Part shown: positions 20,418 through 49,240 of the stretch, one piece after another | Layout of the letters: each line of letters opens with the position of its first letter | Position numbering within the stretch: position 1 is the first letter of the stretch | DNA from: Escherichia coli | GTDB lineage: Bacteria; Pseudomonadota; Gammaproteobacteria; Enterobacterales; Enterobacteriaceae | DNA: 64,000 nt | Assembly: GCF_965641715.1 (NCBI RefSeq) | Contig: NZ_OZ282453.1 | Strand: one strand, 5' to 3' | Position numbers and translations under genes: made by a program | Notes under the pieces: model-generated | Databases searched by the model: none | Told to the model about the DNA's origin: nothing | What the model saw: only the letters and a program-made list of their open reading frames with translations

Positions 20418-22082
20418 TTACTCGCCAACTTTCGCCCAGGTATCACGCAGCCCAACGGTGCGGTTAAATACCGGTTTTTCGGCAGTGGAATGGCGGCTAT
20501 CGAGGCAGAAGTAACCTTCACGCTCAAACTGGAATGCTTTACCCGCAACCGCATCTTTCAGCGACGGTTCAGCAAAGCCCTGTTTGATCACCAGCGATTC
20601 CGGGTTAATCACCGACAGGAAATCATCCGCAGCACCAGGGTTCGGCACACTGAACAGACGGTCATACAAACGGATTTCAACCGGCAGCGCATGTGCCGCG
20701 CTCACCCAGTGAATAACACCTTTGACTTTACGACCATCTGCCGGATCTTTACTTAAGGTATCGGCGTCATAAGTACAGAAGATGGTGGTGATATTACCTT
20801 CGGCATCTTTCTCGACGCGTTCTGCCTTAATCACATAAGCATTACGCAGACGCACTTCTTTACCGAGCACCAGACGTTTGTACTGCTTGTTAGCTTCTTC
20901 GCGGAAATCGGCGCGATCGATCCAAATCTCACCGCTAAACGGCACCTGACGGCTCCCCATTTCCGGTTTGTTCGGATGGTTCGGCATGGTGACCATTTCG
21001 CCTTCGCCCTGATAGTTTTCGATAACCAGTTTCACCGGATCGATAACCGCCATTGCGCGCGGCGCATTTTCGTTGAGATCTTCACGGATGCAGGATTCCA
21101 GCGACGCCATCTCAATGGTGTTGTCCTGCTTGGTCACGCCGATGCGTTTGCAGAACTCACGAATAGAAGCCGCAGTGTAACCACGACGACGCAGACCGGA
21201 AATGGTCGGCATTCGCGGGTCATCCCAGCCTTCAACGTGCTTGTCGGTCACCAGCAGGTTCAGCTTACGCTTGGACATCACAGTGTATTCCAGATTCAGG
21301 CGCGAGAATTCGTACTGGCGCGGGTGAACAGGAATGGTGATGTTGTCCAGCACCCAGTCGTACAGGCGACGGTTGTCCTGGAACTCAAGCGTACACAGAG
21401 AGTGCGTAATACCTTCCAGCGCATCGCTGATGCAATGGGTGAAGTCGTACATCGGGTAGATGCACCACTTGTTGCCAGTCTGGTGGTGTTCAGCAAATTT
21501 AATGCGGTACAGCACCGGATCGCGCATTACGATAAATGGCGACGCCATGTCGATTTTCGCACGCAGGCAGGCTTTACCTTCTTCAAAACCGCCGGTACGC
21601 ATTTTCTCGAACAGCGCCAGGTTCTCTTCAACGCTACGGTCGCGGTACGGGCTGTTTTTACCAGGCTGCGTCAGGGTGCCGCGGTATTCGCGGATCTGTT
21701 CCGGCGTCAGTTCATCAACGTACGCCAGGCCTTTATTGATCAGTTCGATCGCATAGGCGTGGAGCTGATCAAAATAATCGGAGGAGTAACGGACGTTACC
21801 AGACCAGTGAAAACCTAACCACTCAACGTCGTTTTTGATCGAATCGACATACTCGATATCTTCTTTTACCGGGTTAGTGTCGTCGAAACGCAGGTTGCAC
21901 TGGCCTTTATAGTCCTGGGCGATCCCGAAGTTCAGGCAGATAGATTTCGCATGGCCAATATGCAGATAGCCATTCGGCTCCGGCGGGAAACGGGTGTGTA
22001 CTGTGGTGTGCTTACCACTGGCCAGATCTTCATCGATGATCTGACGAATAAAGTTAGTCGGGCGGGCTTCTGCCTCACTCAT
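20418..22082 (-). CDS. glnS: glutaminyl-tRNA synthetase (554 aa)
   Basis: [17 protein letters not shown]...; class I HIGH (HIGH) and KMSKS-like (VMSKR) motifs. Confidence 0.97.
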
Positions 22083-22301
22083 CGTGGATTCCTCAAAGCG
22101 TAAACAACGTATAACGGCGTATGATCTTATAAGCGGGACAGGCTGACAACTGTTAGTTAGCGAAAAAGTGGTTTTGCGTAAGATATTGGGGCGTTTTCTG
22201 CGCTACAGCCAGCAGATCCTCGCGCTGGAGACGTAAGGCCAAACGTCGCCAGCCTGACGCGTTTATTAAATTTCCGGATGAGCTGGCCGCAGAGTCGTAG
22301 A

Positions 22302-23063
22302 TTAATCCGCTATGATTAAACGCGTCGACAAGGACGCCAGCGTTTTGCGCGTCTGCCCATCAAGCTGATTATCCGTAATAATCTCTGTCAGTTCATTAAG
22401 ATGCGCGATATTAAACAGCGACCATGAACCGTATTTTGAGCTGTCAGCCAGGAGAATTTTGCGCGAAGCATGCGCGATAAGATCGCGTTTTAGTGCGGCT
22501 TTCTCTTCCGTGGGTGCTGTAATACCCTTTTCAAGATCCCAGCTGTTACAGCTTAAAAATGCCACGTCCGGCCAGGTATTTTGCAGCATTTTACGACCAT
22601 GTTCGCCAATGCAGGACTGGCTGGAGTCGTCGATACGTCCGCCGATAATCGTCACTTCAATCTGCTTGAATTCAGCCAAAAAAAGCGCGATATGCAGGTC
22701 GCTGGTGATCACGCGAAGCGGTAAATGGGTAATCTGCCGCGCAAGTTCAATCATTGTCGTACCGGCATCAAGGACGACGGAATCCCCCGCTTTGACCATT
22801 GACGCCGCTGCGCTGGCGATGGCATGTTTTTCCGCCAGGCTGCGCTGCATTTTCTCATGGGTAGTCGGTTGGGTAGGAATAAACCGGTTGAGGGTCACAC
22901 CGCCGTGTGTACGGCTGATAACACCCTGCTCATCGAGTTTTATCAGGTCTCGACGAATCGTGGCCGGCGACGCATTGGTTACCGCCACCAGCTCATCAAC
23001 GGTGACCAGATTATGGCTTTTCAGGTAATCCATGATCTGCTCTAACCGGTTATATCCCTTCAT
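22302..23063 (-). CDS. DeoR/GlpR-family transcriptional regulator (253 aa)
   Basis: N-terminal HTH ([30 protein letters not shown]) and C-terminal DeoR-type sugar-phosphate-binding domain; last gene of a three-gene leftward operon. Confidence 0.8.
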
Positions 23064-23064
23064 T

Positions 23065-24051
23065 TTATTCTCGCGAAATCTGCATTGCTAACTGGATGGA
23101 AACTGCCATGCTCTCAGACTTGGCTTTTCCTGTCCAGGCAATATCAAATGCGGTGCCGTGGTCGGCAGAAGTACGAATAAATGGCAACCCGGCGGTGATA
23201 TTCACCCCATCATAAAATCCAAGCAGTTTTAAAGGGATATGCCCCTGATCGTGGTACATAGCCACCACCATATCGAATAGCCCTTCATGGCACTGCATGA
23301 ACACGGTATCTGGCGGGCACGGGCCAGTAACATCAATATCTTCGGCCTGCATTGCTTCAATCGCAGGTGCGATAATCTCGATTTCCTCAGTGCCGAATAA
23401 ACCGTGTTCCCCTGCATGTGGATTTACACCCGCCACGGCAATACGCGGACGCTCAATACCGACACGTTTCAGGAAGTGGTTCGCAACTCGAATAACCGTT
23501 TTGACCCTTTCACCGTTCAATGTATCCAGGAATTTACGCAGTGAGATGTGAGTCGAAATATGGATAACCTTGAGCTTATCGGTATAGAGCACCATCGCGT
23601 ACTCTTTGCTGCCGGTAAGATGGGCCAGCAATTCCGTATGGCCAGGATAGTTATGCCCGCCAAGATGCAGCGCTTCTTTATTCAACGGCGCAGTGGCTAT
23701 GGCTTTCACCTCGCCTGATAAGGCCAGGGCCGTTGCACGTTTGATACAGCGATACGCTAAATCGCCTGCCGCAGCCTGTACCACTCCGGGTGTCAGCGCA
23801 TCGGGGTTAGCCAGCGGCTCATCCATCACGTTAATCACGCCGGGAGCAAAGTGGGCGTCGCACACCTTTTGAATGACGCGTAACTCTGTCTGCGGCGTGA
23901 TATTCATCGCCATAATACGTCGTAACGTGCGCACACAGCCCACCACCACCACCGGGGCACCAGCAAGCCCGGCTTCGCTCAGGGATTTAATAATGATCTC
24001 CGGGCCAATACCCGCCGGATCGCCCATCGTTACCGCAATAATATTATTCAC
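23065..24051 (-). CDS. PdxA-family NAD-dependent dehydrogenase, PdxA2-like (328 aa)
   Basis: Whole-length resemblance to 4-hydroxythreonine-4-phosphate dehydrogenase ([23 protein letters not shown]); starts 8 nt inside the upstream kinase gene. Confidence 0.75.
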
Positions 24052-25282
24052 TACGCTTCTCCTCGATAAAATTCAGAACCTGATGCAACGTGGTCTCATC
24101 GCCAAACCCACCGGCTTTCGTCATCACCGAACGGGACCAGACGCCGCCCAGAAAGTGACCGTATGGAACGCACTGCGCCACCTTCCCCGTAATACGAAAC
24201 CCGGTCGCACCTAACGCACTGGCTGTTGCCATTGCGACATCGCCACCAGAGAGATAAAGGGCATCAGGGGTGACACGAAGCAGAACTTGCCGGGTAAGTT
24301 CGCCAAGAAACCGGCAAATTTTTTCCCCAAGCGCAGCGCGACTCATCTGCCAACGCTGGCAAAGGGTGTCGATATGGTGCCTTGCTTCAGAATCGGTACA
24401 GGTGTGGACAATGCAGTGGTCCCCTTTCTGTAAGGCCTGCACAATACGCGCGTCATAGCCCCTGGCGTTGCCTGCCAGAATGTGTTCAACATCGACGTAT
24501 ATCTGTGTGATACGTGAGTGTGAATGCAGTGTGGCGATCTGCCGTTGAGCGATTTCGCTCATTGAACCAATAATGGCCAGCACGGTGGGTGGCGGCATAA
24601 TCGCCGAGCGCCGGGCAACGGCATCACAAATACCAGCGGAGCCGACCAGCAGCAGCGGTTGTTTAGCCTGCATCACAGCGGCAGCGATGCAATCCAGGTC
24701 GCTGTCCGTCTGCGCATCCATCACCCCAATCCACGGTTGCTCACGAGACAAATGGCTGAGCTCAGAAACTGTAACGGGCTGGCATGGAATGGCCGTCTGC
24801 AACCGAATGATGTCCGCAATTCGTGCGCTCATTACCGGGGTTTTTGGATCGCTGGCAAACTCGGTTTCCGTTAGCCGCACGCCGTTTACCCGACACTCAC
24901 CGTCCACCGTGGTCCTTCCCACCTGGGGAAATGCGGGGGCAACCACTGCGCCCGTTATGCCGCATGCCTGCATCAGGGCTTCAATTTCTGCGCCGATATT
25001 CCCTCGCAGCGTGGAATCTATCTTTTTAATCATGAGCGGCGGGTTATTCGCCAGAGGGAGATGACTCATCAGCGAGGTCATTTTCATCGCGGCCTGCTTA
25101 GGATCCATCGCCCGACTGTCGCTATTAATCACCCATACGCTTGCATCACCGTGATAAGGCGTTGCAAAGGCCACATCAACCGTATGTCCCACCTGCGCCA
25201 GGCTTACTCCTGCGTCGTTGGCCCCTGTGAAATCATCGGCAACGACGAGAATGCTCGGCTTAGTGATTCCCTTTTCCATCAT
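24044..25282 (-). CDS. four-carbon acid-sugar kinase family protein, DUF1537/OtnK-DtnK-like (about 412 aa)
   Basis: N-terminal hallmark ILVVADDFTGANDAGV; start set at the ATGATG doublet preceded by GGAG (track ORF runs to a TTG at 25321). Confidence 0.7.
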   Translation of the reverse strand: MMEKGITKPSILVVADDFTGANDAGVSLAQVGHTVDVAFATPYHGDASVWVINSDSRAMDPKQAAMKMTSLMSHLPLANNPPLMIKKIDSTLRGNIGAEIEALMQACGITGAVVAPAFPQVGRTTVDGECRVNGVRLTETEFASDPKTPVMSARIADIIRLQTAIPCQPVTVSELSHLSREQPWIGVMDAQTDSDLDCIAAAVMQAKQPLLLVGSAGICDAVARRSAIMPPPTVLAIIGSMSEIAQRQIATLHSHSRITQIYVDVEHILAGNARGYDARIVQALQKGDHCIVHTCTDSEARHHIDTLCQRWQMSRAALGEKICRFLGELTRQVLLRVTPDALYLSGGDVAMATASALGATGFRITGKVAQCVPYGHFLGGVWSRSVMTKAGGFGDETTLHQVLNFIEEKRSE

Positions 25283-25448
25283 CACTCCAGGTTGTTTTAT
25301 GATGACAATGATTATATTCAATCACGATTGATTAAATGTGAGCAAGTTCAAGTTATTAATCACTCGAATAAATTATAAAATTAGGCCATGTTACGTAGAC
25401 AACGGTATTTTGAATGATTGATTTCAATCACGAGAAGAGAGGTTATTT
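25283..25448. promoter_or_regulatory. divergent promoter/operator region of the island
   Basis: AT-rich 166-bp spacer between divergent operons containing TCAATCAC-GATTGATT (25318-25333) and its permuted inverted-repeat form GATTGATT-TCAATCAC (25416-25432). Confidence 0.5.
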
Positions 25449-26606
25449 GTGGTAATTATCAATAGCACGATACTGAGCGGCGCAGGCGCTATCCCTTCCC
25501 TGACGTCGCTCTTACCCGGCGTCAGAAAATTGCTGCTGGTCACAGACAGCAATATTGCGCAGCTTAACGGAGTGCAGCAGATTCGCGCCTTACTGGAAAA
25601 GCACTGCCCGCAGGTGAGCGTTATCGATAATGTGCCTGCAGAGCCTACGCATCATGATGTGCGCCAGCAAATGGCGACCCTCGGCAACGCGTCGTTTGAT
25701 GTAGTAGTGGGCGTCGGCGGCGGCAGCGTGCTGGATGTCGCAAAACTGTTGTCGGTGCTTTGTCACCCCGATTCACCGGGGCTGGATGCGCTGCTTGCCG
25801 GTGAAAAACCGACGCAGCGGGTGCAATCATGGTTGATTCCTACAACCGCCGGTACCGGCTCAGAAGCCACGCCAAATGCGATTCTGGCGATCCCTGAACA
25901 AAGCACGAAGGTGGGTATTATTTCTCCGGTGCTGCTACCGGATTATGTGGCACTTTTCCCCGAGCTGACCACCAGCATGCCCGCACATATTGCAGCGTCT
26001 ACGGGCATTGATGCGCTTTGTCACTTACTGGAGTGTTTTACCGCGACCGTGGCAAATCCGGTCAGCGATAACGCGGCGCTAACCGGGTTAAGTAAGCTTT
26101 TCCGGCATATTCAACCCGCCGTGAACGATCCTCAGGATCTGCGCGCAAAACTGGAAATGCTGTGGGCGTCTTACTATGGCGGCGTAGCGATAACCCATGC
26201 GGGCACGCACCTGGTCCATGCGCTCTCCTACCCGTTAGGCGGCAAATATCACCTGCCGCACGGTGTGGCGAATGCCATCTTGCTGGCACCGTGCATGGCG
26301 GTTGTTCGCCCCTGGGCGGTCGAGAAATTTGCCCAGGTCTGGGATTGCATTCCCGATGCGGATACATCCTTGAGCGCGGAAGAGAAATCTCACGCTCTGG
26401 TGGCCTGGCTACAGGCATTAGTCAATCAACTCAAGCTGCCCAACAATCTCGCGGATCTTGGCGTACCGCCAGATGATATTACGTCTCTTAGCGCGGCGGC
26501 ACTGAACGTGAAGCGCCTGATGAACAATTCCCCCTGCCAACTGAATCAGCGGGACGTGCAGGCCATTTACCAAACGCTGTTTCCGCAACATCAATTTAAG
26601 GAGTAA
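25449..26606 (+). CDS. iron-containing (group III) alcohol dehydrogenase (385 aa, GTG start)
   Basis: GGGS NAD(P)-binding motif (VVGVGGGSVLDVAKL) and His-rich metal site (HALSYPLGGKYHLPHG); RBS agagagg upstream. Confidence 0.75.
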   Translation: MVIINSTILSGAGAIPSLTSLLPGVRKLLLVTDSNIAQLNGVQQIRALLEKHCPQVSVIDNVPAEPTHHDVRQQMATLGNASFDVVVGVGGGSVLDVAKLLSVLCHPDSPGLDALLAGEKPTQRVQSWLIPTTAGTGSEATPNAILAIPEQSTKVGIISPVLLPDYVALFPELTTSMPAHIAASTGIDALCHLLECFTATVANPVSDNAALTGLSKLFRHIQPAVNDPQDLRAKLEMLWASYYGGVAITHAGTHLVHALSYPLGGKYHLPHGVANAILLAPCMAVVRPWAVEKFAQVWDCIPDADTSLSAEEKSHALVAWLQALVNQLKLPNNLADLGVPPDDITSLSAAALNVKRLMNNSPCQLNQRDVQAIYQTLFPQHQFKE

Positions 26607-26609
26607 ATC

Positions 26610-27497
26610 ATGCCAAAAACCATTGAAGGTGTATTAACCGCCATCGTCACCCCGTTTACCGCGACCGGCGTCCTGAATCTCCCGGCGTTAAAAGTGCAGG
26701 TTAATCGCCAACTGGAAGCCGGTAACGCGATTTTTTGCGGCGGCACCAACGGCGAGTTTTTTGTGTTGAACGAACAGGAGAAGCTCAGCGTTACGCAAAC
26801 CTGCGTGGATGAAGTGGCTGGCCGCGCACCGGTCGTGGCGCACATTGGTGAGATCTCGACGCGCGAAACCATTCGTCTGGGTCAGCAGATTGAAAAACTG
26901 GGCGTTGATGCGGTATCGGTCATTACCCCGTACTTTGTACCGCTAAAACAGGAAGAGCTGATTGCCCATTACACCGCAATTGCCGACGCACTAAGCATTC
27001 CCATGTTTCTCTATAACATCCCGGCCCGCACCGGCAATACGATTCAGCCGGAAACCGCGCGCGCTCTGGCGTCGCATCCCAATATCATTGGGATTAAAGA
27101 CAGCGCCGGAAGCTACGAAAGCCTGAAGGGTTTTCTCGATGCTGTGCGCAACATTGACGGCTTTAATGTGCTCAACGGCCCGGATTCGCTGATCCATAAA
27201 GGGTTTGTCGAGGGGTGTTCAGCCTGTATTTCCGGGCTCGCCAACGTCGCGCCGCGAGAAATCAATGCCATCTGGTCTCGCTTCCATGCCGGTGATATTG
27301 AAGGATCGTATCAGGCACAGGAGAGTGTGACTGGCCTGCGTACCGATCTTTATAAAGTAGCATTCTCCCCAGCTGCGGTGAAAAAAGCGTTGCAGCTTAT
27401 GGGGCATGATGTTGGTGATAGCCGCTACGCGGTTAATTTCACGCCTGAACAGATCAGCGAGATTCAACAAATTATTCGTCATTATCACATTAATTAA
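26610..27497 (+). CDS. DapA/NanA-family Schiff-base aldolase/lyase (295 aa)
   Basis: GVLTAIVTPF N-terminal motif, GGTNGEF, and Schiff-base lysine context IIGIKDSAG; starts 3 nt after the ADH stop. Confidence 0.75.
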   Translation: MPKTIEGVLTAIVTPFTATGVLNLPALKVQVNRQLEAGNAIFCGGTNGEFFVLNEQEKLSVTQTCVDEVAGRAPVVAHIGEISTRETIRLGQQIEKLGVDAVSVITPYFVPLKQEELIAHYTAIADALSIPMFLYNIPARTGNTIQPETARALASHPNIIGIKDSAGSYESLKGFLDAVRNIDGFNVLNGPDSLIHKGFVEGCSACISGLANVAPREINAIWSRFHAGDIEGSYQAQESVTGLRTDLYKVAFSPAAVKKALQLMGHDVGDSRYAVNFTPEQISEIQQIIRHYHIN

Positions 27498-27556
27498 ATT
27501 AACTCTATTATCCAGCCCGCTATAACGTATAGATAAAGAGAATAAAGGATTACCCC

Positions 27557-28315
27557 ATGTTTTTGTGGTTTATGCAGCCAGATATCTGGCTCACTTTAAT
27601 TACCCTCACCTTTCTGGAAATTATTCTCGGGGTGGATAATATTATTTTTCTTTCACTGGTGGTGGCAAAACTTCCGTTATCACAACAAAATATGGCGCGT
27701 AAACTGGGTTTAAGCTGCGCGATGATTATGCGGATATTATTGCTGATATCCATTGCGTGGCTTTCACATATTACCCAGCCGCTTTTTACCGTGCTGGCGC
27801 TGGAGATTTCGTTCCGCACGTTGATTCTACTCGGGGGCGGGCTGTTCCTGATTTATAAAGCGATACAGGAGATACGCGAAGAGTTGTCGCCCGCGCAGGA
27901 AGACGCGCATGGCAGCGGGTCGCGGCAGCTGTCGCTGTGCGGTGCTATCGTACAGATAATGCTGCTGGATATTGTGTTCAGCCTGGACTCGGTGATCACC
28001 GCCGTCGGCCTTTCTCAGCATATATTTATTATGATTGCTGCCGTCATGATTGCCGTTGGCATCATGATGTTTGCGGCGAAAACCATTGGTGACTTCGTGA
28101 ACGCGACGCCATCGATAAAAATACTGGCGTTAACCTTTTTATTATTTGTCGGCGTATTGTTGGTTGCCGATAGCCTCAATATTCATATTGCCAAAGAGTA
28201 TCTCTACTTCGCGATATTTTTCTCATTAAGCGTGGAGACACTCAATATTTTCCGTGAAAGAAGACATAAAAAAGTTTCGACATCGATCGAAACGCATGAA
28301 TCGAACTCGCATTAA
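27557..28315 (+). CDS. TerC-family integral membrane protein (252 aa)
   Basis: About seven hydrophobic helices with two DN/DS-type motifs (LGVDNIIFLSL, FSLDSVITAVG) typical of TerC/YgdQ-like proteins. Confidence 0.55.
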   Translation: MFLWFMQPDIWLTLITLTFLEIILGVDNIIFLSLVVAKLPLSQQNMARKLGLSCAMIMRILLLISIAWLSHITQPLFTVLALEISFRTLILLGGGLFLIYKAIQEIREELSPAQEDAHGSGSRQLSLCGAIVQIMLLDIVFSLDSVITAVGLSQHIFIMIAAVMIAVGIMMFAAKTIGDFVNATPSIKILALTFLLFVGVLLVADSLNIHIAKEYLYFAIFFSLSVETLNIFRERRHKKVSTSIETHESNSH

Positions 28316-28350
28316 TAAATCTATTACCGACTTTAAGATGGAGTCTAACT

Positions 28351-29520
28351 ATGTCTGTAGCTCTTATTCGTGACGGCGTCATCCGTCCGTCCGAAAATGA
28401 TTCGCATGTGCTTACCGCCATGCTGCCCTCGTCCTGCCCGCAAAACCACGCGGCGAATATTCTGCCTTTGCCGGATGGCGCGTTAATGTGCGTCTGGTTT
28501 GCGGGAACGCAGGAAGGTATTGCCGATATTTCCGTCTGGGGATCGCGGCTGCCCGCTGGCGGAACGCAGTGGAGCGATGCGGTCAAACTGTCCCACGATG
28601 ACACGCGTTCAGAGCAGAACCCGGTACTGTTTCTCGCACCGGATAACGTGCTGTGGCTGCTATGGACCGCACAAATATCCGGTAATCAGGACACCGCCAT
28701 CGTCCGCTACCGTAAGTCAGACGACCTCGGACAAACCTGGGGCGAGATTGCCACGCTGCTCGATAAACCCGGCACGTTCATTCGCCAGCCGATCACGGTG
28801 CTTGATAACGGCAACTGGCTGCTGCCCGTCTTTTATTGCCGTACCCAACCCGGTGAAAAATGGGTCGGCAATGATGATATCAGCGCAGTGAAAATTTCCG
28901 CTGACGGTGGTCACTCATGGCGCGATGTCGAGGTGCCGCAAAGTCTCGGCTGCGTTCATATGAATATCACAATGCTGCACGACGGTACGTTGGCTGCTCT
29001 CTTTCGCAGCCGTTGGGCAGACAACATCTATATCAGCCATTCTGCGGACCACGGCGAGAGCTGGTCGGTGCCGCAAGCAACCGAACTGCCCAACAACAAT
29101 TCGTCTATTCAGGTGACGACGCTTGCCAGCGGTGAGCTGGCGCTGGTGTACAACGCAATGAGTGCGGCAGGCGCAGTAGAACGTCGCGCGTCGCTGTATG
29201 ACGAAATCGACGATGGCGACGACAGTCGCAAAGAACCCACAGCCGTTGGACGCTCCGCTTTCTGGGGTGCCCCGCGCGCGCCGATGACGGTAGCGATTTC
29301 TGCCGATGGCGGGAAAAGCTGGCCGTGGCGGCGCAATCTCGATGAAGGCGATGGCTACTGCATGACCAACAATTCGCTGGAAAAGCTAAATCGCGAGTTC
29401 TCCTACCTCAGTATCAAACAAAGCCCGGACGGTACGCTGCATATCGCTTACACCTGGTGGCGTCAGGCCATCAAGTACGTGCGCATCTCCCCCGAGTGGG
29501 TTAAGGGGCAGGCATTATGA
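28351..29520 (+). CDS. BNR/Asp-box repeat sialidase-like protein, predicted cytoplasmic (389 aa)
   Basis: Four S-x-D-x-G-x-[TS]-W Asp-boxes (SDDLGQTW, SADGGHSW, SADHGESW, SADGGKSW); N-terminal IRP (FRIP-like); no signal peptide. Confidence 0.75.
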   Translation: MSVALIRDGVIRPSENDSHVLTAMLPSSCPQNHAANILPLPDGALMCVWFAGTQEGIADISVWGSRLPAGGTQWSDAVKLSHDDTRSEQNPVLFLAPDNVLWLLWTAQISGNQDTAIVRYRKSDDLGQTWGEIATLLDKPGTFIRQPITVLDNGNWLLPVFYCRTQPGEKWVGNDDISAVKISADGGHSWRDVEVPQSLGCVHMNITMLHDGTLAALFRSRWADNIYISHSADHGESWSVPQATELPNNNSSIQVTTLASGELALVYNAMSAAGAVERRASLYDEIDDGDDSRKEPTAVGRSAFWGAPRAPMTVAISADGGKSWPWRRNLDEGDGYCMTNNSLEKLNREFSYLSIKQSPDGTLHIAYTWWRQAIKYVRISPEWVKGQAL

Positions 29521-29987
29521 TTATCGGGAATCTCAACCATTTGTCACAGGCGGGGCTTCCCGCTGGCGTGAAAAATATTCTGCTGCGCCCGGAATGTTCG
29601 TTACGGGCGTTATCCGCCAGAGAGGACGGTCGCTGGCAACTGGAAGGATGCCGGTGGTTCTGCACGCTGGGCCTTTCAGACACGCAGCCCGCCGATCTCC
29701 GGCATACGGAGTATCACCATCTGTGGGCCGATATTCAGGTGGTGATTGCCGGTTGTGAGGGCATTAATGCGGGGACGCGGCCCGTAGCGCAGGAAAGCGA
29801 TGAAGAACGTAAGCCCGATCTGTTTATCGCCCCATCCCCTGAAAACAGTGTCGCAATCACCTTACACCCCGGTGATTTCGCCGTCTTTATGCCAGAAGAA
29901 CCCCATCAGGCGCTGTGCGCGGTTGGCGCGGCCACGTCAGTACGTAAAGCGGTCTTTAAGGTACCGCGCGACATGCTGGAAGCCTAA
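29517..29987 (+). CDS. YhcH/YjgK/YiaL (DUF386) family protein (156 aa)
   Basis: Size and N-terminal pattern (MIIGNLNHLSQAGLP...) typical of the DUF386 family found in sialic-acid and beta-galactoside operons; ATGA overlap with the BNR gene. Confidence 0.65.
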   Translation: MIIGNLNHLSQAGLPAGVKNILLRPECSLRALSAREDGRWQLEGCRWFCTLGLSDTQPADLRHTEYHHLWADIQVVIAGCEGINAGTRPVAQESDEERKPDLFIAPSPENSVAITLHPGDFAVFMPEEPHQALCAVGAATSVRKAVFKVPRDMLEA

Positions 29988-30000
29988 AAGGAGAGAAAAA

Positions 30001-31281
30001 ATGACAATGGAAATGATCCTGGCATTAGGAATACTGGTCCTGATGATCGTGCTGATCATGTCGGACAAAATGCCCTTTGGCGCACCGCCACTGCTTGCGT
30101 GTTTATTGCTGGTTGTCTCGGGGCTGTCGACGGTTCAACAGGCTTTTGCCGGATTCGTCAATCCAAGCGTGGTGATGATTGCAGGGTTTATGGTGGTGAT
30201 GGCTGCGCTACAAAAAACCCGGCTTATCAGCAACGTTAAATCTGCGATGATAAGCCTGGTCAATAAAGGCAGTTACCGCAGTTATGGGCTGTTGTTAGTC
30301 ATCGTTATGCTGGGCGCCAGTCTTGCCGGCACCGGCGCGACGGGTTATTACGTGCTGATTCTGTCTCTGGTATCCACCATTCCGTACAGTAAAAAGCTAC
30401 CAACATCGAAATTGATGATGCCACTGGGATTTGCCACCAACCATCCGCTTCTTCCTATCAATCTCGCGCTTCTCTTTGGCGTCACGGCGACCGTACTCGA
30501 AACAGCCGGTTTTCATCAGGAGATTTCGATGGGGCGCTTTGCGCTGGTGAATCTCGTCATGTCAGCGGCTTTTCTGGCGTGGAGTCTGATTGCCTACCGT
30601 TTTCTTCCGGATCATCCCATTGCGGATGCTTCCGAGGATGCGCTGGCCGCACGCGAAGAAACGTTTAACGCCCTTCCTGCCTGGAAAGAGTATTGCACCA
30701 TCGCCGCATTCGCCGTCAGCGTTATCGGCATGATGCTGATGAATATGCTGGGTAATATCGCCTTCGTTATTCCAGGCCTTGCGGGTGCGTTTGTTCTGAT
30801 GATCGATGTACTGGACTTTAAAGAAGTTCGCGATCATATGGGGGCACCGGTCATTTTAATGATGGCGGGGGTGATCGGTGTGGCTGATGCGCTGGCTGGC
30901 ACCGGCTTTACGGCAATGGTAGGCGATGCCGTTGCAGGTGTGCTCGGGTCTGGCGTCTCACCGTTTGTATTTATTGTCGCCTTTGCTTTACTTACCAGTA
31001 CCTGCGCCACCTTCACGGGTTCGAATATGGGGTCAGTCTATATTTTTGCCCCCATCGCCATTGCCGCCTGTACTAGCCTTGGGCTTAACCCGACCGCTGC
31101 CGCGATTGCGGTGGTGATTTCTGGCTGGAATGGCGGCTATATGCCTATTGACGGAATGCCAGCCATGATCCTCGGAATGGGGAAATACAAACTTCCCGAA
31201 TTCTGGGTGTTCTCTGTACCAATGTATCTCATCCGCATTCTGGCGCTTTGTGCAGGCGCTGTTTTTATCTTCCCAATGTAA
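30001..31281 (+). CDS. anion permease of the ion-transporter superfamily, GntP/CitMHS-like (426 aa)
   Basis: ATG at 30001 preceded by aaaggagag; 10-12 hydrophobic segments with two-repeat architecture; the track ORF (29800) carries a spurious upstream extension. Confidence 0.6.
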   Translation: MTMEMILALGILVLMIVLIMSDKMPFGAPPLLACLLLVVSGLSTVQQAFAGFVNPSVVMIAGFMVVMAALQKTRLISNVKSAMISLVNKGSYRSYGLLLVIVMLGASLAGTGATGYYVLILSLVSTIPYSKKLPTSKLMMPLGFATNHPLLPINLALLFGVTATVLETAGFHQEISMGRFALVNLVMSAAFLAWSLIAYRFLPDHPIADASEDALAAREETFNALPAWKEYCTIAAFAVSVIGMMLMNMLGNIAFVIPGLAGAFVLMIDVLDFKEVRDHMGAPVILMMAGVIGVADALAGTGFTAMVGDAVAGVLGSGVSPFVFIVAFALLTSTCATFTGSNMGSVYIFAPIAIAACTSLGLNPTAAAIAVVISGWNGGYMPIDGMPAMILGMGKYKLPEFWVFSVPMYLIRILALCAGAVFIFPM

Positions 31282-31290
31282 TCTCAGACA

Positions 31291-31326
31291 AAAAAAGCGG
31301 CAGAGAAGATCCCTGCCGCTTTTTAT
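31291..31326. terminator. bidirectional intrinsic terminator at the island/nagE junction
   Basis: aaaaaagcggcagagaagatccctgccgcttttt: 7-bp GC stem flanked by an A-run and a T-run. Confidence 0.7.
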
Positions 31327-31329
31327 TGT

Positions 31330-31362
31330 TGAATGCGACGCTGCCGTGTCGCATCAGGCATG
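31330..31362. repeat. REP-like palindromic fragment
   Basis: gaatgcgacgctgccgtgtcgcatcaggcatg. Confidence 0.45.
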
Positions 31363-31369
31363 AAGCAGA

Positions 31370-33316
31370 TTACTTTTTGATTTCATACAGCGGTGTTTGA
31401 CCCGCCACAACATGGCCCTGAGCTTTAATGATCAAGCCACTGAAATCGTCGATATTACTGCAAACCACTGGGCTAATCATCGAGCGGGCGTTAGCGTTCA
31501 GGTAATCCAGATCCATTTCCAGAATCGGTTGTCCTGCGCTTACCTGCGCGCCCTCTTCCACCAGACGTTTAAAGCCTTTACCTTCCAGCGCTACGGTATC
31601 GATACCCATATGGACGACGATCTCCGCGCCTTTTTCGGTTTCCAGGCAGAACGCGTGGTTGGTGTTGAAGATTTTCACGATTGTCCCTGCGGCTGGTGAT
31701 ACGACGATTTTATCTGTCGGTTTCACCGCCACACCGTCACCCACTGCTTTGCTGGCGAATGCTTCGTCAGGAACCTGATCCAGTGCCACGACATCACCGG
31801 TAATCGGCGATACCAGCTCCGCGATAGATACCGCGTTTGGTACAGCCTGCGGTTTTGCTACAGGAGCGGCAGTTGCCGGAGTTGCTTCAGCAGAGGCAGC
31901 TGCTACCGGGCCACGGGCAACGACTTTCTTCATCGCATCGCCGATGGATTCTGCTTTCGCGCCAACAATCACCTGAATAGTCTGTTTGTTCAGTTTTACT
32001 ACACCAGAAGCACCCAGACGTTTACACATCGTATCGTTAACGCGGGCAGAGTCAGCCACTGTAAGGCGCAGACGGGTGATACAGGCGTCAATTGCTTTCA
32101 GGTTGTCAGTGCCGCCAACCGCAGCAATATAGTTGGTCGCCAGTTGATTGAGGCCTTCTTCAGTGTTGCTGTTGGCTTCTTCAGTAACGATCTCGTCTTC
32201 TTTATCTTCACGACCCGGCGTTTTCAGGTTGAACATGCGGATAACCAAACTGAACACCACGAAGTAGATAGCGAAGAAGACAACACCCATCACCAGCAGC
32301 ATCCAGACGTTCTGGCTGGCGGCCGGCAGGTTATACATCAACGCGTAGTCGATAGCCCCCGCAGAGAAAGAGAAGCCGGCATGGATACCCAGCAGCGTTG
32401 CCACAAACAGGCTGATACCGGTCAGCAGTGCGTGCAGGAGGTACAGCAGCGGTGCAAGGAACATGAACAGGAATTCCAGCGGCTCAGTCACACCGGTCAG
32501 GAACGCAGTAACAGCAACAGAAAGCAGCATCCCGCCAACCATCGGACGACGCTCTTTCGGTGCTGCGAAGTACATCGCCAGCGCCGCCCCCGGCAGACCG
32601 AACATCATGATCGGGAAGAAGCCGGACATGAACATCCCCGCGGTGCCGTCACCGGCATAGAAGCGGTTGATATCACCGTGGAAAACCGTACCCGCCGCGT
32701 TGGTGAATTCACCAATCTGGAACCAGGCGATGGTGTTCAGCACCTGATGCAGACCGGTTGGGATCAGCAGACGGTTGATGAAACCAAAGATACCGGAACC
32801 CAGCGCGCCCGCAGAAACGATCCACTCGCCGCCTGCATGGATAGCGTGCTGTACCGGCGGCCAGACGTAACCAAAAATGGCCGCCAGCACCAGACAGAAG
32901 AAGCCGGTGGCGATCGGCACAAAGCGTTTGCCGCCGAAGAAGCTCAGGAAGTCCGGCAGTTTAATATCGGACCAACGGTTATAGGCTGCGCCACCAACCA
33001 GACCGGTAATGATACCCGCCAGTACACCCATGTTAATTTCTGGGTTGATGGTCACCATCGCTTTGGTTAACACAAAGTAACCTACCGCACCCGCCAGCGC
33101 CGCCGCACCTGCGCTGTCTTTCGACCAGCTGGATGCCACACCGATGGCGAAGATTAATGCGAGGTTATCAAAAATCGCACCGCCCGCCTGGGCAATAAAC
33201 GCAACGTTAAGTAAATCTGGCTGACCGAATCGCAGCAACAGTGCCGCCACCGGCAGCACCGCGATAGGGAGCTGTAACGCCCTACCGAGTCGCTGGAAAA
33301 AACCTAAAATATTCAT
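31370..33316 (-). CDS. nagE: PTS N-acetylglucosamine-specific EIICBA component (648 aa)
   Basis: MNILGFFQRLGRALQLPIAVLP...; EIIC membrane domain, EIIB cysteine region, EIIA C-terminus. Confidence 0.96.
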   Translation of the reverse strand: MNILGFFQRLGRALQLPIAVLPVAALLLRFGQPDLLNVAFIAQAGGAIFDNLALIFAIGVASSWSKDSAGAAALAGAVGYFVLTKAMVTINPEINMGVLAGIITGLVGGAAYNRWSDIKLPDFLSFFGGKRFVPIATGFFCLVLAAIFGYVWPPVQHAIHAGGEWIVSAGALGSGIFGFINRLLIPTGLHQVLNTIAWFQIGEFTNAAGTVFHGDINRFYAGDGTAGMFMSGFFPIMMFGLPGAALAMYFAAPKERRPMVGGMLLSVAVTAFLTGVTEPLEFLFMFLAPLLYLLHALLTGISLFVATLLGIHAGFSFSAGAIDYALMYNLPAASQNVWMLLVMGVVFFAIYFVVFSLVIRMFNLKTPGREDKEDEIVTEEANSNTEEGLNQLATNYIAAVGGTDNLKAIDACITRLRLTVADSARVNDTMCKRLGASGVVKLNKQTIQVIVGAKAESIGDAMKKVVARGPVAAASAEATPATAAPVAKPQAVPNAVSIAELVSPITGDVVALDQVPDEAFASKAVGDGVAVKPTDKIVVSPAAGTIVKIFNTNHAFCLETEKGAEIVVHMGIDTVALEGKGFKRLVEEGAQVSAGQPILEMDLDYLNANARSMISPVVCSNIDDFSGLIIKAQGHVVAGQTPLYEIKK

Positions 33317-39986: not shown

Positions 39987-40063
39987 GGCTACGTAGCTCA
40001 GTTGGTTAGAGCACATCACTCATAATGATGGGGTCACAGGTTCGAATCCCGTCGTAGCCACCA
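39987..40063 (+). tRNA. metT: tRNA-Met (elongator, anticodon CAT)
   Basis: ggctacgtagctcagttggttagagc...gtcgtagccacca; cloverleaf with CAT anticodon and encoded CCA. Confidence 0.95.
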
Positions 40064-40071
40064 TCTTTTTT

Positions 40072-40156
40072 GCGGGAGTGGCGAAATTGGTAGACGCACC
40101 AGATTTAGGTTCTGGCGCCGCAAGGTGTGCGAGTTCAAGTCTCGCCTCCCGCACCA
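40072..40156 (+). tRNA. leuW: tRNA-Leu (anticodon TAG), class II with long variable arm
   Basis: gcgggagtggcgaaattggtagacgc...ctcgcctcccgcacca, 85 nt. Confidence 0.93.
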
Positions 40157-40179
40157 TTCACCAGAAAGCGTTGTACGGA

Positions 40180-40254
40180 TGGGGTATCGCCAAGCGGTAA
40201 GGCACCGGTTTTTGATACCGGCATTCCCTGGTTCGAATCCAGGTACCCCAGCCA
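40180..40254 (+). tRNA. glnU: tRNA-Gln (anticodon TTG)
   Basis: tggggtatcgccaagcggtaaggcaccggtttttgataccgg...cccagcca. Confidence 0.93.
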
Positions 40255-40288
40255 TCTTCTTCGAGTAAGTGGTTCACCGCCCGGTTAT

Positions 40289-40363
40289 TGGGGTATCGCC
40301 AAGCGGTAAGGCACCGGTTTTTGATACCGGCATTCCCTGGTTCGAATCCAGGTACCCCAGCCA
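40289..40363 (+). tRNA. glnW: tRNA-Gln (anticodon TTG), identical copy of glnU
   Basis: Identical 75-nt sequence to the glnU copy. Confidence 0.93.
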
Positions 40364-40378
40364 TCGAAGAAACAATCT

Positions 40379-40455
40379 GGCTACGTAGCTCAGTTGGTTA
40401 GAGCACATCACTCATAATGATGGGGTCACAGGTTCGAATCCCGTCGTAGCCACCA
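40379..40455 (+). tRNA. metU: tRNA-Met (elongator, anticodon CAT), identical copy of metT
   Basis: Identical 77-nt sequence to metT. Confidence 0.93.
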
Positions 40456-40501
40456 AATTCTGAGTGTGTCGAATATGTTCGGCAAATTCAAAACCAATTT
40501 G

Positions 40502-40576
40502 TTGGGGTATCGCCAAGCGGTAAGGCACCGGATTCTGATTCCGGCATTCCGAGGTTCGAATCCTCGTACCCCAGCC
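40502..40576 (+). tRNA. glnV: tRNA-Gln (anticodon CTG)
   Basis: tggggtatcgccaagcggtaaggcaccggattctgattccgg...cccagcca. Confidence 0.93.
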
Positions 40577-40614
40577 AATTTATTCAAGACGCTTACCTTG
40601 TAAGTGCACCCAGT

Positions 40615-40689
40615 TGGGGTATCGCCAAGCGGTAAGGCACCGGATTCTGATTCCGGCATTCCGAGGTTCGAATCCTCGTACCCCAGCCA
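40615..40689 (+). tRNA. glnX: tRNA-Gln (anticodon CTG), identical copy of glnV
   Basis: Identical 75-nt sequence to glnV. Confidence 0.93.
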
Positions 40690-48172: not shown

Positions 48173-49081
48173 ATGCAATTACGTAAACCTGCCACAGCAA
48201 TCCTCGCCCTGGCGCTTTCCGCAGGACTGGCACAGGCAGATGACGCCGCCCCGGCAGCAGGCAGTACGCTGGACAAAATCGCCAAAAACGGTGTGATTGT
48301 CGTCGGTCACCGTGAATCTTCAGTACCTTTCTCTTATTACGACAATCAGCAAAAAGTGGTGGGTTATTCGCAGGATTACTCCAACGCCATTGTTGAAGCA
48401 GTGAAAAAGAAACTCAACAAACCGGACTTGCAGGTGAAACTGATTCCGATCACCTCACAAAACCGTATTCCTCTTCTGCAAAACGGCACTTTCGATTTTG
48501 AATGTGGTTCTACCACCAACAACGTCGAACGCCAAAAACAGGCGGCTTTCTCTGACACTATTTTCGTGGTCGGTACGCGCCTGTTGACCAAAAAGGGCGG
48601 CGATATCAAAGATTTTGCCGACCTGAAAGACAAAGCCGTAGTCGTCACTTCCGGCACTACCTCTGAAGTTTTGCTCAACAAACTGAATGAAGAGCAAAAA
48701 ATGAATATGCGCATCATCAGCGCCAAAGATCACGGTGACTCTTTCCGCACCCTGGAAAGCGGTCGTGCCGTTGCCTTTATGATGGATGATGCCCTGCTGG
48801 CCGGTGAACGTGCGAAAGCGAAGAAACCAGACAACTGGGATATCGTCGGCAAGCCGCAGTCTCAGGAAGCCTACGGTTGCATGTTGCGTAAAGACGATCC
48901 GCAGTTCAAAAAGCTGATGGATGACACTATCGCTCAGGTGCAGACCTCCGGCGAAGCGGAAAAATGGTTTGATAAGTGGTTCAAAAATCCAATTCCGCCG
49001 AAAAACCTGAACATGAATTTCGAACTGTCAGACGAAATGAAAGCACTGTTCAAAGAACCGAATGACAAAGCACTGAACTAA
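48173..49081 (+). CDS. gltI: glutamate/aspartate ABC transporter periplasmic binding protein (302 aa)
   Basis: Starts MQLRKPATAILALALSAGLAQA (signal peptide); the track ORF carries a 25-codon upstream extension. Confidence 0.95.
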   Translation: MQLRKPATAILALALSAGLAQADDAAPAAGSTLDKIAKNGVIVVGHRESSVPFSYYDNQQKVVGYSQDYSNAIVEAVKKKLNKPDLQVKLIPITSQNRIPLLQNGTFDFECGSTTNNVERQKQAAFSDTIFVVGTRLLTKKGGDIKDFADLKDKAVVVTSGTTSEVLLNKLNEEQKMNMRIISAKDHGDSFRTLESGRAVAFMMDDALLAGERAKAKKPDNWDIVGKPQSQEAYGCMLRKDDPQFKKLMDDTIAQVQTSGEAEKWFDKWFKNPIPPKNLNMNFELSDEMKALFKEPNDKALN

Positions 49082-49084
49082 TTA

Positions 49085-49240
49085 CAAGAACCAGGGGCGG
49101 AAATTCTAGCCCTCTCGATTGTTACGTAGCACGGACAGACTATACGCCTGATGGTCGTTCCCCATCGGGCCTGAAAACCGCAATACGCTGGGTAACAATC
49201 TTCGAGGGTAGCAGTTAACGCTGCTACCCTCTTTTTTCTG
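49085..49240 (+). ncRNA. sroC: SroC-type sRNA region in the gltI-gltJ spacer (processed from the gltIJKL mRNA)
   Basis: Position equivalent to the known SroC locus; spacer ends in a strong hairpin gagggtagcagttaacgctgctaccctctttttt (about 49204-49236); exact ends not determinable from sequence. Confidence 0.45.

What the first reader, a model, noticed from the sequence alone, without database searches (positions are those of the whole stretch)
27557..28315. TerC-family membrane protein inside a catabolic operon
A seven-helix TerC/YgdQ-like protein is encoded between the lyase and the BNR gene, with short gaps (60 and 36 bp), so it is probably cotranscribed. TerC-family proteins are usually linked to metal (Mn/Ca) or tellurite handling, not sugar catabolism. 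The operon already has a separate permease. The role here is unexplained; one guess is metal supply to the Fe-ADH.
Basis: inference. Interest (0 to 1): 0.5.

Follow-up and report, generated by a model that had tools for sequence, protein, structure and literature searches.

The report
TerC metal exporter inside acid-sugar operon
A spare copy of a membrane metal-ion exporter (TerC/YgdQ type) is a fixed, selected part of an uncharacterised acid-sugar breakdown operon, and across bacteria it appears only where the operon uses a carboxylate-type importer, which suggests it handles metal ions that accompany the sugar acid.

Summary
Window 27557-28315 (+) encodes a 252-aa, seven-helix TerC-family protein (Pfam 155 bits). 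It lies 59 nt after a DHDPS-type aldolase gene and 35 nt before a sialidase-fold gene, with no terminator or riboswitch.

It is a diverged paralogue (about 62% identity) of the core E. coli gene ygdQ. The acidic residues needed for Mn2+ export in Alx are intact, and dN/dS is 0.07-0.15.

The gene belongs to a nine-gene mobile module between glnS and nagE, present in 1047 of 5426 complete E. coli genomes. The module ends in D-threonate kinase and D-threonate-4-phosphate dehydrogenase.

Comparing 93 related clusters gave the main result.
- TerC tracks the importer, not the Fe-ADH. It is absent from all 63 clusters with an SSF symporter.
- It is present in all 11 proteobacterial clusters with the SLC13 permease.
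- It was recruited at least three more times: Aeromonas (next to SLC13), Propionivibrio (TTT), Formivibrio (TAXI-TRAP) and Marinobacterium (ABC).

Best reading (confidence about 0.4): it is the divalent-cation return limb of uptake of a metal-chelating sugar acid. I found no description of this TerC context. Interest is moderate to high.

The parts
22302..23063 (-). DeoR-family regulator of the module
   Evidence: Pfam HTH_DeoR plus DeoRC. Conserved next to pdxA2 in most related clusters.
23065..24051 (-). pdxA2, D-threonate 4-phosphate dehydrogenase
   Evidence: NCBIfam equivalog NF002891, 680.9 bits against a cutoff of 583.
24044..25279 (-). dtnK, D-threonate kinase (DUF1537 family)
   Evidence: NCBIfam equivalog NF047819, 531.8 bits against a cutoff of 450. 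RefSeq names it dtnK.
25280..25448 (.). Divergent intergenic region, presumed promoter/operator for both transcription units
   Evidence: Position only, between the divergent dtnK and Fe-ADH genes. Not analysed further.
25449..26606 (+). Iron-type alcohol dehydrogenase, first gene of the plus-strand unit
   Evidence: Pfam Fe-ADH plus ADH_Fe_C. Below every NCBIfam equivalog cutoff.
26610..27497 (+). DHDPS/NanA-family pyruvate aldolase (the 'lyase')
   Evidence: Pfam DHDPS, 208.9 bits. Below the dapA and nanA equivalog cutoffs.
27498..27556 (+). 59-nt spacer with the AAGGA ribosome-binding site for the TerC gene; no terminator
   Evidence: Sequence. RNA fold z-score -0.19. No Rfam match.
27557..28315 (+). 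TerC-family membrane protein, a YgdQ paralogue (the finding)
   Evidence: Pfam TerC, 155 bits. Seven helices. E21, D27, N28, D138, D144 and S145 are invariant, including in Alx. dN/dS 0.07-0.15.
28351..29520 (+). Cytoplasmic sialidase-fold (BNR_2) protein
   Evidence: Pfam BNR_2, 212 bits. AF2 pLDDT 93.5. Best PDB matches are GH33 sialidases, TM about 0.7, 12-17% identity. No signal peptide by inspection.
29517..29987 (+). YhcH/YjgK/YiaL (DUF386) protein, related to N-acetylneuraminate anomerase
   Evidence: Pfam DUF386; TIGR00022 above cutoff; anomerase equivalog below cutoff.
30001..31281 (+). SLC13/CitMHS-like ion-transporter-superfamily permease, the importer that co-varies with TerC
   Evidence: Pfam CitMHS 86.6 bits and Na_sulph_symp 49.2 bits. 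Start codon checked. RefSeq name 'SLC13 family permease'. Terminator-like hairpin at 31241-31271.

Best explanation
The gene encodes a diverged extra copy of the housekeeping YgdQ protein, a TerC-family divalent-cation exporter. It is co-transcribed as a fixed part of a catabolic module for an acidic ulosonic-type sugar. That module runs: permease, sialidase-fold enzyme, YhcH-type anomerase, NanA-like aldolase, Fe-ADH, D-threonate kinase, D-threonate-4-P dehydrogenase.

Its job is tied to uptake, not to the enzymes. When the acid is imported by a carboxylate-type carrier (here the SLC13/CitMHS-like permease), TerC pumps a divalent cation (Ca2+ or Mn2+) back across the inner membrane. That cation either entered with the chelating acid or is needed at the periplasmic face to form the transported complex. 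Sugar-acid uptake therefore does not load the cytoplasm with metal.

Shown here: family, topology, intact metal-site residues, purifying selection, a fixed place in the module, co-variation with importer class, and repeated independent recruitment.

Inferred: which ion is moved, the direction of transport, and the coupling to the permease.
For: 1. TerC family with seven helices. The residues matching Alx E86, D92, D216 and D222, which are needed for Mn2+ export, are invariant.
2. Purifying selection like its neighbours. It is full length in 1046 of the 1047 E. coli genomes that carry the island.
3. The same module with TerC occurs in Escherichia, Salmonella salamae, the Klebsiella oxytoca group, Kluyvera, Metakosakonia and Citrobacter rodentium, at different chromosomal sites. 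Scandinavium encodes close orthologues of both TerC and SLC13 on one contig, but its gene order was not examined.
4. Across 93 related clusters, TerC is present in 0 of 63 with an SSF symporter and 11 of 14 with this SLC13. The three exceptions are all Firmicutes. K. aerogenes (SSF, no TerC) and the K. oxytoca group (SLC13 plus TerC) hold the two versions at the same chromosomal site.
5. Independent recruitments:
- Aeromonas places a different YgdQ-type TerC directly after SLC13. It is 81% identical to K-12 YgdQ and 58% to this protein. Its GC is 40%, against 45-51% for the cluster and 57-64% for the host.
- YjbE-type TerCs sit in the clusters of Propionivibrio (TctABC importer), Formivibrio (directly after a TAXI-TRAP permease) and Marinobacterium (directly after an ABC importer).
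6. Literature:
- A ygdQ knockout loses Ca-carboxylate-driven CaCO3 precipitation, in a model that needs an unidentified Ca2+ exporter (PMC12707652).
- ygdQ is among the mRNAs most affected by MgrR, an sRNA induced at low Mg2+/Ca2+ (PMC6239178).
- TerC MeeY is proposed to work with the SwrC transporter to metalate its acidic cargo (PMC12096827).
- CitMHS carriers import metal-citrate complexes (established knowledge).
Against: - No transport or metal data exist for this protein or for YgdQ.
- The permease is only a distant IT-superfamily member (CitMHS 86 bits, DASS 57 bits against a cutoff of 198.6), so metal-complex transport is a guess.
- Three Firmicute clusters carry a 76-78% identical SLC13 without TerC.
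- Several TRAP, TTT and ABC clusters also lack TerC (L044, L045, L057).
- TerC also anti-correlates with the SDR gene of the SSF-type clusters, so the real variable could be the substrate form rather than the importer.
- TRAP and SSF carriers both use Na+, so cation co-import alone does not separate the classes.
- Co-transcription was not measured.
Confidence: 0.4

Rival explanations
1. General metal-homeostasis valve, not linked to the importer. Catabolism of the acid salt alkalinises the cytoplasm or raises free Mn2+/Ca2+, and an Alx-like exporter is co-induced to compensate.
For: Alx exports Mn2+ mainly at alkaline pH (PMC10197570). The metal-site residues are conserved. Recurrent linkage to the pathway.
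Against: This does not explain why none of the 63 SSF-type clusters has a TerC, although about 46 of them encode the same enzyme set. It also does not explain why TerC sits directly beside transporter genes in Aeromonas, Formivibrio and Marinobacterium. No Mn riboswitch is present.
Confidence: 0.15
2. It transports an organic solute. It could be an auxiliary importer for the sugar acid, occupying the slot held by the SSF carrier elsewhere, or a safety-valve exporter for a toxic intermediate such as a tetronate or aldehyde-acid.
For: It occupies exactly the DHDPS-BNR slot that holds the SSF transporter in the other variant. TerC belongs to the LysE superfamily, which includes amino-acid exporters (established knowledge).
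Against: All acidic and polar residues of the TerC metal site are kept. No TerC member is known to carry an organic substrate. The module already has a dedicated permease that is itself tied to this pathway across phyla. In Aeromonas the SSF slot is simply empty and TerC sits elsewhere.
Confidence: 0.12
3. One reading: it supplies or balances metal for a cytoplasmic enzyme of the operon (Fe-ADH, or the metal-dependent PdxA2).
For: Fe-ADH and PdxA-type enzymes need divalent metals (established knowledge). The genes are in one module.
Against: Fe-ADH and PdxA2 are present in dozens of clusters without TerC. C. rodentium keeps TerC but has lost pdxA2 and dtnK. Characterised TerC proteins export metal from the cytoplasm (PMC10197570, PMC10550928).
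Confidence: 0.05
4. Hitchhiker: a ygdQ duplicate that landed in the operon and has no role in the pathway.
For: Some carriers show decay of the module: IS1 in the TerC gene of BEN2908, and deletion fusions P0043 and P0465.
Against: dN/dS is 0.07-0.15 across genera. The gene is retained in 1046 of 1047 E. coli carriers. It is kept even in the reduced C. rodentium cluster. There are at least four independent TerC recruitments to the same pathway, where chance predicts far fewer than one (my estimate).
Confidence: 0.08

Closest known systems
[quoted passage not shown]
   Same: About 62% identity over the full length. Same seven-helix layout and the same E/D-N and D/D-S motifs.
   Different: YgdQ is a core gene (5425 of 5426 genomes) at mutH-ygdQ-ygdR. 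This copy is accessory (1047 of 5426) and sits inside a catabolic operon. There are 14 fixed clade-specific differences, including loss of two acidic residues at the predicted periplasmic face (D88T, D154Q). It also has a longer C-terminal tail.
E. coli Alx and Bacillus subtilis MeeF/MeeY (characterised TerC Mn2+ exporters and metallochaperones)
   Same: Same Pfam family. The residues equivalent to Alx E86, D92, D216 and D222 are conserved. The MeeY-SwrC precedent shows a TerC proposed to work with a small-molecule transporter (PMC12096827).
   Different: Only 22% identity to Alx, which has nine helices against seven here. No yybP-ykoY riboswitch. Below the NCBIfam YkoY, YjbE and Alx subfamily cutoffs. 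The partner here is an importer in a catabolic operon.
E. coli nan system for sialic acid (NanA lyase, YhcH/NanQ anomerase, NanC KdgM-type porin, sialidases)
   Same: The module combines a sialidase-fold enzyme, a YhcH-family protein and a NanA-family aldolase. The Aeromonas version adds a KdgM/NanC-family porin.
   Different: All nan equivalog scores are below cutoff. The downstream steps are Fe-ADH, D-threonate kinase and PdxA2 instead of ManNAc kinase and epimerase. No TerC is part of nan.
CitMHS metal-citrate carriers (B. subtilis CitM/CitH)
   Same: The permease matches the Pfam CitMHS model best, at 86.6 bits. Carriers of that family import carboxylate-divalent-metal complexes (established knowledge).
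   Different: It is a distant member only. No solved or characterised close relative was found. Metal dependence is untested.

Membership tests
TerC family (Pfam PF03741) | Profile score above the curated threshold over the whole domain | tested here: met
   155.2 bits against a cutoff of 27.8; residues 15-205 match profile positions 1-177 of 178.
TerC family (Pfam PF03741) | Seven transmembrane helices in the short members | tested here: met
   The AF2 model has seven long helices at pLDDT 72. PMC10550928 states that TerC proteins have seven TM segments.
TerC family (Pfam PF03741) | Conserved intramembrane acidic/polar metal-site residues in two helices | tested here: met
   E21, D27 and N28 (helix 1) and D138, D144 and S145 (helix 4) are invariant with YgdQ and Alx. 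Their Alx equivalents are required for Mn2+ export.
TerC family (Pfam PF03741) | Divalent-metal export activity | not testable with these tools
   Needs genetics, ICP-MS or transport assays.
YgdQ orthologue | The single-copy gene at the mutH-ygdQ-ygdR locus | tested here: not met
   ygdQ lies at that locus in K-12 and is present in 5425 of 5426 genomes. This gene lies between glnS and nagE, is 62% identical and has 14 fixed differences. It is therefore a paralogue.
NCBIfam riboswitch-linked TerC subfamilies (YkoY TIGR03716, YjbE TIGR03717, Alx TIGR03718) | Score above the subfamily cutoff | tested here: not met
   84.1 against 138.5 and 66.7 against 134.8, with no Alx hit. By contrast, the TerCs of L047, L049 and L091 pass the YjbE cutoff.
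yybP-ykoY (Mn2+) riboswitch-controlled exporters | Riboswitch in the 5' leader | tested here: not met
   No Rfam match at E <= 1 in 22000-31500. The spacer is 59 nt.
Tellurite-resistance ter operon (terZABCDE) | Neighbouring ter genes | tested here: not met
   All neighbours are catabolic or regulatory genes.
   TerC is the only Pfam family hit, and only TerC subfamilies hit in NCBIfam.
D-threonate catabolic pathway (DtnK plus PdxA2), for the module | Both equivalog models above cutoff, with adjacent genes | tested here: met
   531.8 against 450 and 680.9 against 583; the genes overlap by 8 nt.
GH33 sialidase, for the neighbouring BNR gene | Six-bladed propeller fold, plus the Arg triad, Tyr and Glu catalytic set | tested here: inconclusive
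   The fold matches GH33 at TM about 0.7 and E = 1e-16. Several invariant Arg residues and a near-invariant Tyr352 exist, but they were not mapped onto the active site.

The most novel reading that the evidence does not exclude
YgdQ- and YjbE-type TerC proteins are dedicated partners of carboxylate importers. They cycle a divalent cation (Ca2+ or Mn2+) across the inner membrane so that a metal-chelating plant sugar acid can be taken up.

The module itself would be an undescribed pathway for the pectin (rhamnogalacturonan-II) sugar 3-deoxy-D-lyxo-heptulosaric acid. The steps would be: ketosidase, anomerase, aldolase to pyruvate plus a C4 aldehyde-acid, Fe-ADH reduction to D-threonate, then DtnK and PdxA2 to DHAP plus CO2. 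By my Fischer-projection reasoning the stereochemistry gives D-threonate.

This would give the first physiological role for YgdQ and a natural source for D-threonate.
Probability: 0.25. Interest if true: 0.8.

Novelty: new variant of a known kind. Interest (0 to 1): 0.6.

Why it matters
TerC proteins are found in many bacteria, yet their physiological role in Gram-negative bacteria is poorly defined. YgdQ is still listed as uncharacterised in E. coli (PMC11551758).

This is a natural experiment. The same pathway exists with and without a TerC, and the difference follows the type of importer. That turns the question of what YgdQ-type TerC proteins are for into a testable one: a deletion, an importer swap and metal measurements on one substrate.

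The module is also a marker island of extraintestinal and B2-type E. coli (GR 6 in PMC12928451). It is shared with many plant-associated and gut bacteria, so knowing its substrate bears on niche adaptation.

Tried and rejected
- Riboswitch or other RNA element upstream of TerC: none at E <= 1.
- Internal terminator or promoter isolating the gene: consensus hits equal shuffled expectation. The flanking spacers are no more structured than shuffles.
- Solved relatives of TerC: none by sequence, and none by fold at E < 0.2.
- Solved relatives of the permease: none.
- Remnants of the SSF or SDR genes in the spacers of the TerC-type module: none. The long Klebsiella spacer looks like an ERIC-type repeat, identified by eye only.
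- Plasmid carriage of the gene: none. Plasmid-collection hits are YgdQ-like genes at 60% identity or less, mostly in mislabelled chromosomes.
- Literature:
  - No paper in the held library links TerC with this cluster.
  - None links the heptulosaric acid with D-threonate.
  - None describes what feeds DtnK/PdxA2 here.
  - Thiaville et al. 2016 could not be read.
  - The first literature search was swamped by telomerase TERC papers.
- GH143 (Bacteroides Dha-hydrolase) as the closest fold of the BNR protein: not seen. All 50 listed matches are GH33 sialidases or sialidase-based constructs. The Dha idea therefore rests on pathway logic and taxon distribution only.
- TerC correlating with Fe-ADH or PdxA2: rejected by the cluster table.

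Full report
**Observation**

The ORF at 27557-28315 (+) encodes 252 aa. An AAGGA ribosome-binding site lies 8 nt before the ATG. Its only Pfam match is TerC (PF03741), at 155.2 bits against a cutoff of 27.8. NCBIfam finds only the TerC subfamilies YkoY and YjbE, both below cutoff. An AlphaFold2 model built on 28 sequences (pLDDT 72) shows seven long helices.

The gene lies 59 nt after a DHDPS-family gene and 35 nt before a BNR_2 gene. RefSeq annotates the same ORF as 'TerC family protein' in E. coli.

**Setting**

The window is an Escherichia chromosome. Its glnS is at most 99.2% identical to E. coli genomes, and the island is 95.4% identical. A nine-gene insert sits between glnS and nagE.

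- Minus strand: a DeoR regulator, pdxA2 (D-threonate-4-phosphate dehydrogenase, equivalog 681 against 583 bits) and dtnK (D-threonate kinase, 532 against 450 bits).
- Plus strand: Fe-ADH, a DHDPS/NanA-type aldolase, TerC, a sialidase-fold protein, a YhcH/DUF386 protein and an SLC13/CitMHS-like permease.

The island is in 1047 of 5426 complete E. coli genomes. It is the uncharacterised 'GR 6 nagE..glnS' region shared by ExPEC, APEC and AIEC strains (PMC12928451).

**Is the gene isolated from the operon?**

There is no sign that it is.
- Terminator- and promoter-like hits in 22000-31500 equal the shuffled expectation, and none lies in either spacer on the plus strand.
- The two spacers fold no better than shuffles, with z = -0.19 and +0.71.
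- No Rfam family, including the Mn2+ riboswitch typical of several TerC genes, matches at E <= 1.
- The best terminator-like hairpin lies at the end of the permease gene, at 31241-31271.

Transcription itself was not measured.

**What the protein is**

Its closest relatives outside the module are YgdQ proteins at about 60-62% identity. ygdQ is a core gene at mutH-ygdQ-ygdR, present in 5425 of 5426 genomes. The island gene is therefore an extra paralogue.

E21, D27 and N28 in helix 1, and D138, D144 and S145 in helix 4, are invariant across the island clade, YgdQ and Alx. Their Alx counterparts (E86, D92, D216, D222) are required for Mn2+ export (PMC10197570).

Fourteen positions are fixed differently between the island clade and the YgdQ clade. 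Two of them lose acidic residues (D88T, D154Q) at what the model and the positive-inside rule place on the periplasmic side (the topology is inferred).

dN/dS is 0.066 against E. coli and 0.08-0.15 against Klebsiella, Salmonella and Kluyvera, like the neighbouring genes. No solved structure resembles the protein by sequence or fold.

**Comparative genomics**

The same module, with TerC in the same slot, occurs in Salmonella enterica subsp. salamae, the Klebsiella oxytoca group, Metakosakonia, Kluyvera and, in reduced form, Citrobacter rodentium. In these it sits at a different chromosomal site, near marC/marR.

I anchored on the sialidase-fold protein and fetched 80 further loci from one-genome-per-species data. 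I then tabulated neighbours by tblastn and a TerC HMM.

Most clusters have a different layout: Fe-ADH, DHDPS, SSF symporter, BNR, DUF386, SDR. These come from Klebsiella aerogenes, Pantoea, Yersinia, Leclercia, Enterobacter, Kosakonia, Pectobacterium, Dickeya, Erwinia, Gilliamella, Bradyrhizobium, Burkholderia, Azospirillum and Bacillus. None of these 63 SSF clusters has a TerC. K. aerogenes (SSF type) and the K. oxytoca group (TerC plus SLC13 type) carry the two versions at the same chromosomal site.

| Importer in cluster | Clusters with TerC | Note |
|---|---|---|
| SSF symporter | 0 of 63 | Many taxa |
| SLC13 permease | 11 of 14 | The three without TerC are all Firmicutes |
| TAXI-TRAP | 1 of 3 | Formivibrio; not Vibrio or Lonepinella (filed Lonepinella under TTT) |
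| TTT (TctABC) | 1 of 2 | Propionivibrio soli; not the Rhodocyclaceae MAG |
| Other or unknown | 1 of 11 | Marinobacterium (ABC) |

(Counts.)

All 11 proteobacterial clusters with this SLC13 permease have a TerC. The three Firmicute clusters that carry a 76-78% identical SLC13 do not (Paenibacillus, Anaeromicropila, Bacillus salacetis).

**Independent recruitments**

- **Aeromonas enteropelogenes.** The acquired cluster reads BNR, DUF386, SLC13, TerC, KdgM porin.
  - This TerC is 81% identical to K-12 YgdQ and 58% to the window protein.
  - TerC and KdgM have 39-40% GC. The rest of the cluster has 45-51% and the host genes 57-64%, so the pair was added separately.
- **Propionivibrio soli.** A YjbE-subfamily TerC follows the Fe-ADH, in a cluster served by TctABC.
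- **Formivibrio.** A YjbE-type TerC follows a TAXI-TRAP permease directly.
- **Marinobacterium rhizophilum.** A YjbE-type TerC follows an ABC importer.

The three YjbE-type proteins are 23-29% identical to the window protein and 34-49% identical to each other.

Outside the clusters, only one TerC gene, an Alx-like one, turned up in all the flanking DNA examined (L086). Bacteria carry a few TerC genes per several thousand genes. At least four separate recruitments to one pathway is therefore far above chance. That is my rough estimate, not a formal test.

**Consequences for the interpretations**

TerC follows the importer class, not the Fe-ADH. The Fe-ADH is present in clusters of both types (in about 46 of the 63 SSF clusters). 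C. rodentium keeps TerC while lacking pdxA2, dtnK and DUF386. Known TerC proteins export metal from the cytoplasm and have a conserved metal site, and there is no evidence that they transport tellurite (PMC10550928). All enzymes of the module lack signal peptides by inspection. Feeding metal to the Fe-ADH is therefore unlikely.

**Best-supported mechanism**

TerC is the divalent-cation limb of uptake. The carboxylate-type importer takes up a metal-chelating sugar acid. TerC returns the metal to the periplasm, or supplies it there.

Supporting hints from the literature:
- A ygdQ knockout loses CaCO3 precipitation in a screen. The model for that screen is uptake of calcium carboxylates followed by Ca2+ export through an unidentified transporter (PMC12707652).
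- ygdQ is one of the two mRNAs most affected by MgrR, an sRNA induced at low Mg2+/Ca2+ (PMC6239178).
- B. subtilis MeeY is proposed to act with the SwrC pump to metalate its acidic cargo (PMC12096827).
- The permease matches the CitMHS model best, and carriers of that family move metal-citrate complexes (established knowledge).

Weak points:
- The permease is only a distant family member.
- The Firmicute clusters, and some TRAP and TTT clusters, lack TerC.
- TerC also anti-correlates with the SDR gene, so substrate form could be the real variable.
- There are no functional data.

I put this reading at about 0.4.

**What the module may degrade (side result, inferred)**

A sialidase fold, a YhcH anomerase-type protein and a NanA-type aldolase point to an ulosonic acid. 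A D-threonate end-pathway needs a C4 fragment, and so a C7 acid.

3-deoxy-D-lyxo-heptulosaric acid from rhamnogalacturonan II would give pyruvate plus a C4 aldehyde-acid. Reduction of that product by an Fe-ADH yields D-threonate, by my Fischer-projection reasoning. The scheme parallels the glucarate route (GarL, GarR, GarK).

The taxa that carry the cluster are largely plant-associated or pectin-degrading. They include Pectobacterium, Dickeya, Erwinia, Pantoea, Bradyrhizobium, Azospirillum, Paenibacillus and Gilliamella. One version adds a KdgM-family porin. A dicarboxylate would also fit SLC13, TTT and TAXI-TRAP carriers and would chelate Ca2+.

No paper in the held library connects these. 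The fold search did not single out the Bacteroides Dha-hydrolase family.

**Verdict**

The finding is real and more interesting than a stray membrane protein. It is a selected YgdQ paralogue whose presence is tied to how an uncharacterised sugar-acid pathway imports its substrate. It is a new variant of a known kind. Its mechanism is plausible but untested.

Noticed in passing
window 22302-31281: The whole nine-gene module looks like an undescribed pathway from a seven-carbon ulosonic diacid to D-threonate and then DHAP. The candidate substrate is 3-deoxy-D-lyxo-heptulosaric acid of pectin RG-II. The genes point to that route, the stereochemistry is consistent with it, and the taxa that carry the module are largely plant-associated or pectin-degrading. 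No literature was found.
   Followed up: partly
L062:11337-12623, L093:9001-10281, L094:9001-10284: The SLC13 permease is 76-78% identical between Enterobacteriaceae and Firmicutes (Paenibacillus, Anaeromicropila, Bacillus salacetis). The enzymes in the same clusters are only 24-62% identical, with the sialidase-fold protein highest in Paenibacillus. This suggests cross-phylum transfer of the single transporter gene into resident clusters.
   Followed up: partly
L095:10403-11939: In Aeromonas enteropelogenes the acquired cluster ends with a YgdQ-type TerC and a KdgM/NanC-family porin. Both have about 40% GC, lower than the rest of the island (45-51%) and the host (57-64%).
   Followed up: yes
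L004:7720-8000 and L012:8981-9210: In the Klebsiella oxytoca group the DHDPS-TerC spacer is 230-280 bp and looks like an ERIC-type enterobacterial repetitive element. This was recognised by eye, not tested. The window has only 59 nt there.
   Followed up: no
H29 (E. coli BEN2908); L003:8792-9963; L006:5886-7031; L092; P0043; P0465: There are signs of decay of the module in some lineages:
- IS1 inserted in the TerC gene of BEN2908.
- A split BNR gene in S. salamae.
- A split Fe-ADH in Metakosakonia.
- C. rodentium lacks deoR, pdxA2, dtnK and DUF386.
- In-frame TerC-BNR and TerC-SLC13 fusion proteins in E. coli-like sequences that look like internal deletions.
   Followed up: partly
window 20418-31400: The island in this window is only 95.4% identical to the best of the 1047 E. 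coli copies (TerC gene 90-95.5%). The flanking glnS reaches 99.2%. The source is a divergent Escherichia lineage, or it carries a divergent island allele.
   Followed up: partly
P0037 and P0038 (metagenome proteins): Two TerC sequences look mosaic. One has island-type residues in the N-terminal half and YgdQ-type residues in the C-terminal half, and the other is the reverse. This could be recombination between the paralogues or an assembly chimera.
   Followed up: no
window 39987-40686, 49077-49239, 1592-1634: Ordinary features elsewhere in the window: a cluster of seven tRNA genes, sroC sRNA, and ES036/CssrF sRNA (Rfam gathering hits).
   Followed up: no
L060-L068, L072, L079 (Bradyrhizobium): Many Bradyrhizobium loci keep only the triad of SSF symporter, sialidase-fold protein and SDR. 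The aldolase, Fe-ADH and D-threonate genes are not nearby. These three genes may form a separable front-end unit whose chemistry is unknown.
   Followed up: no
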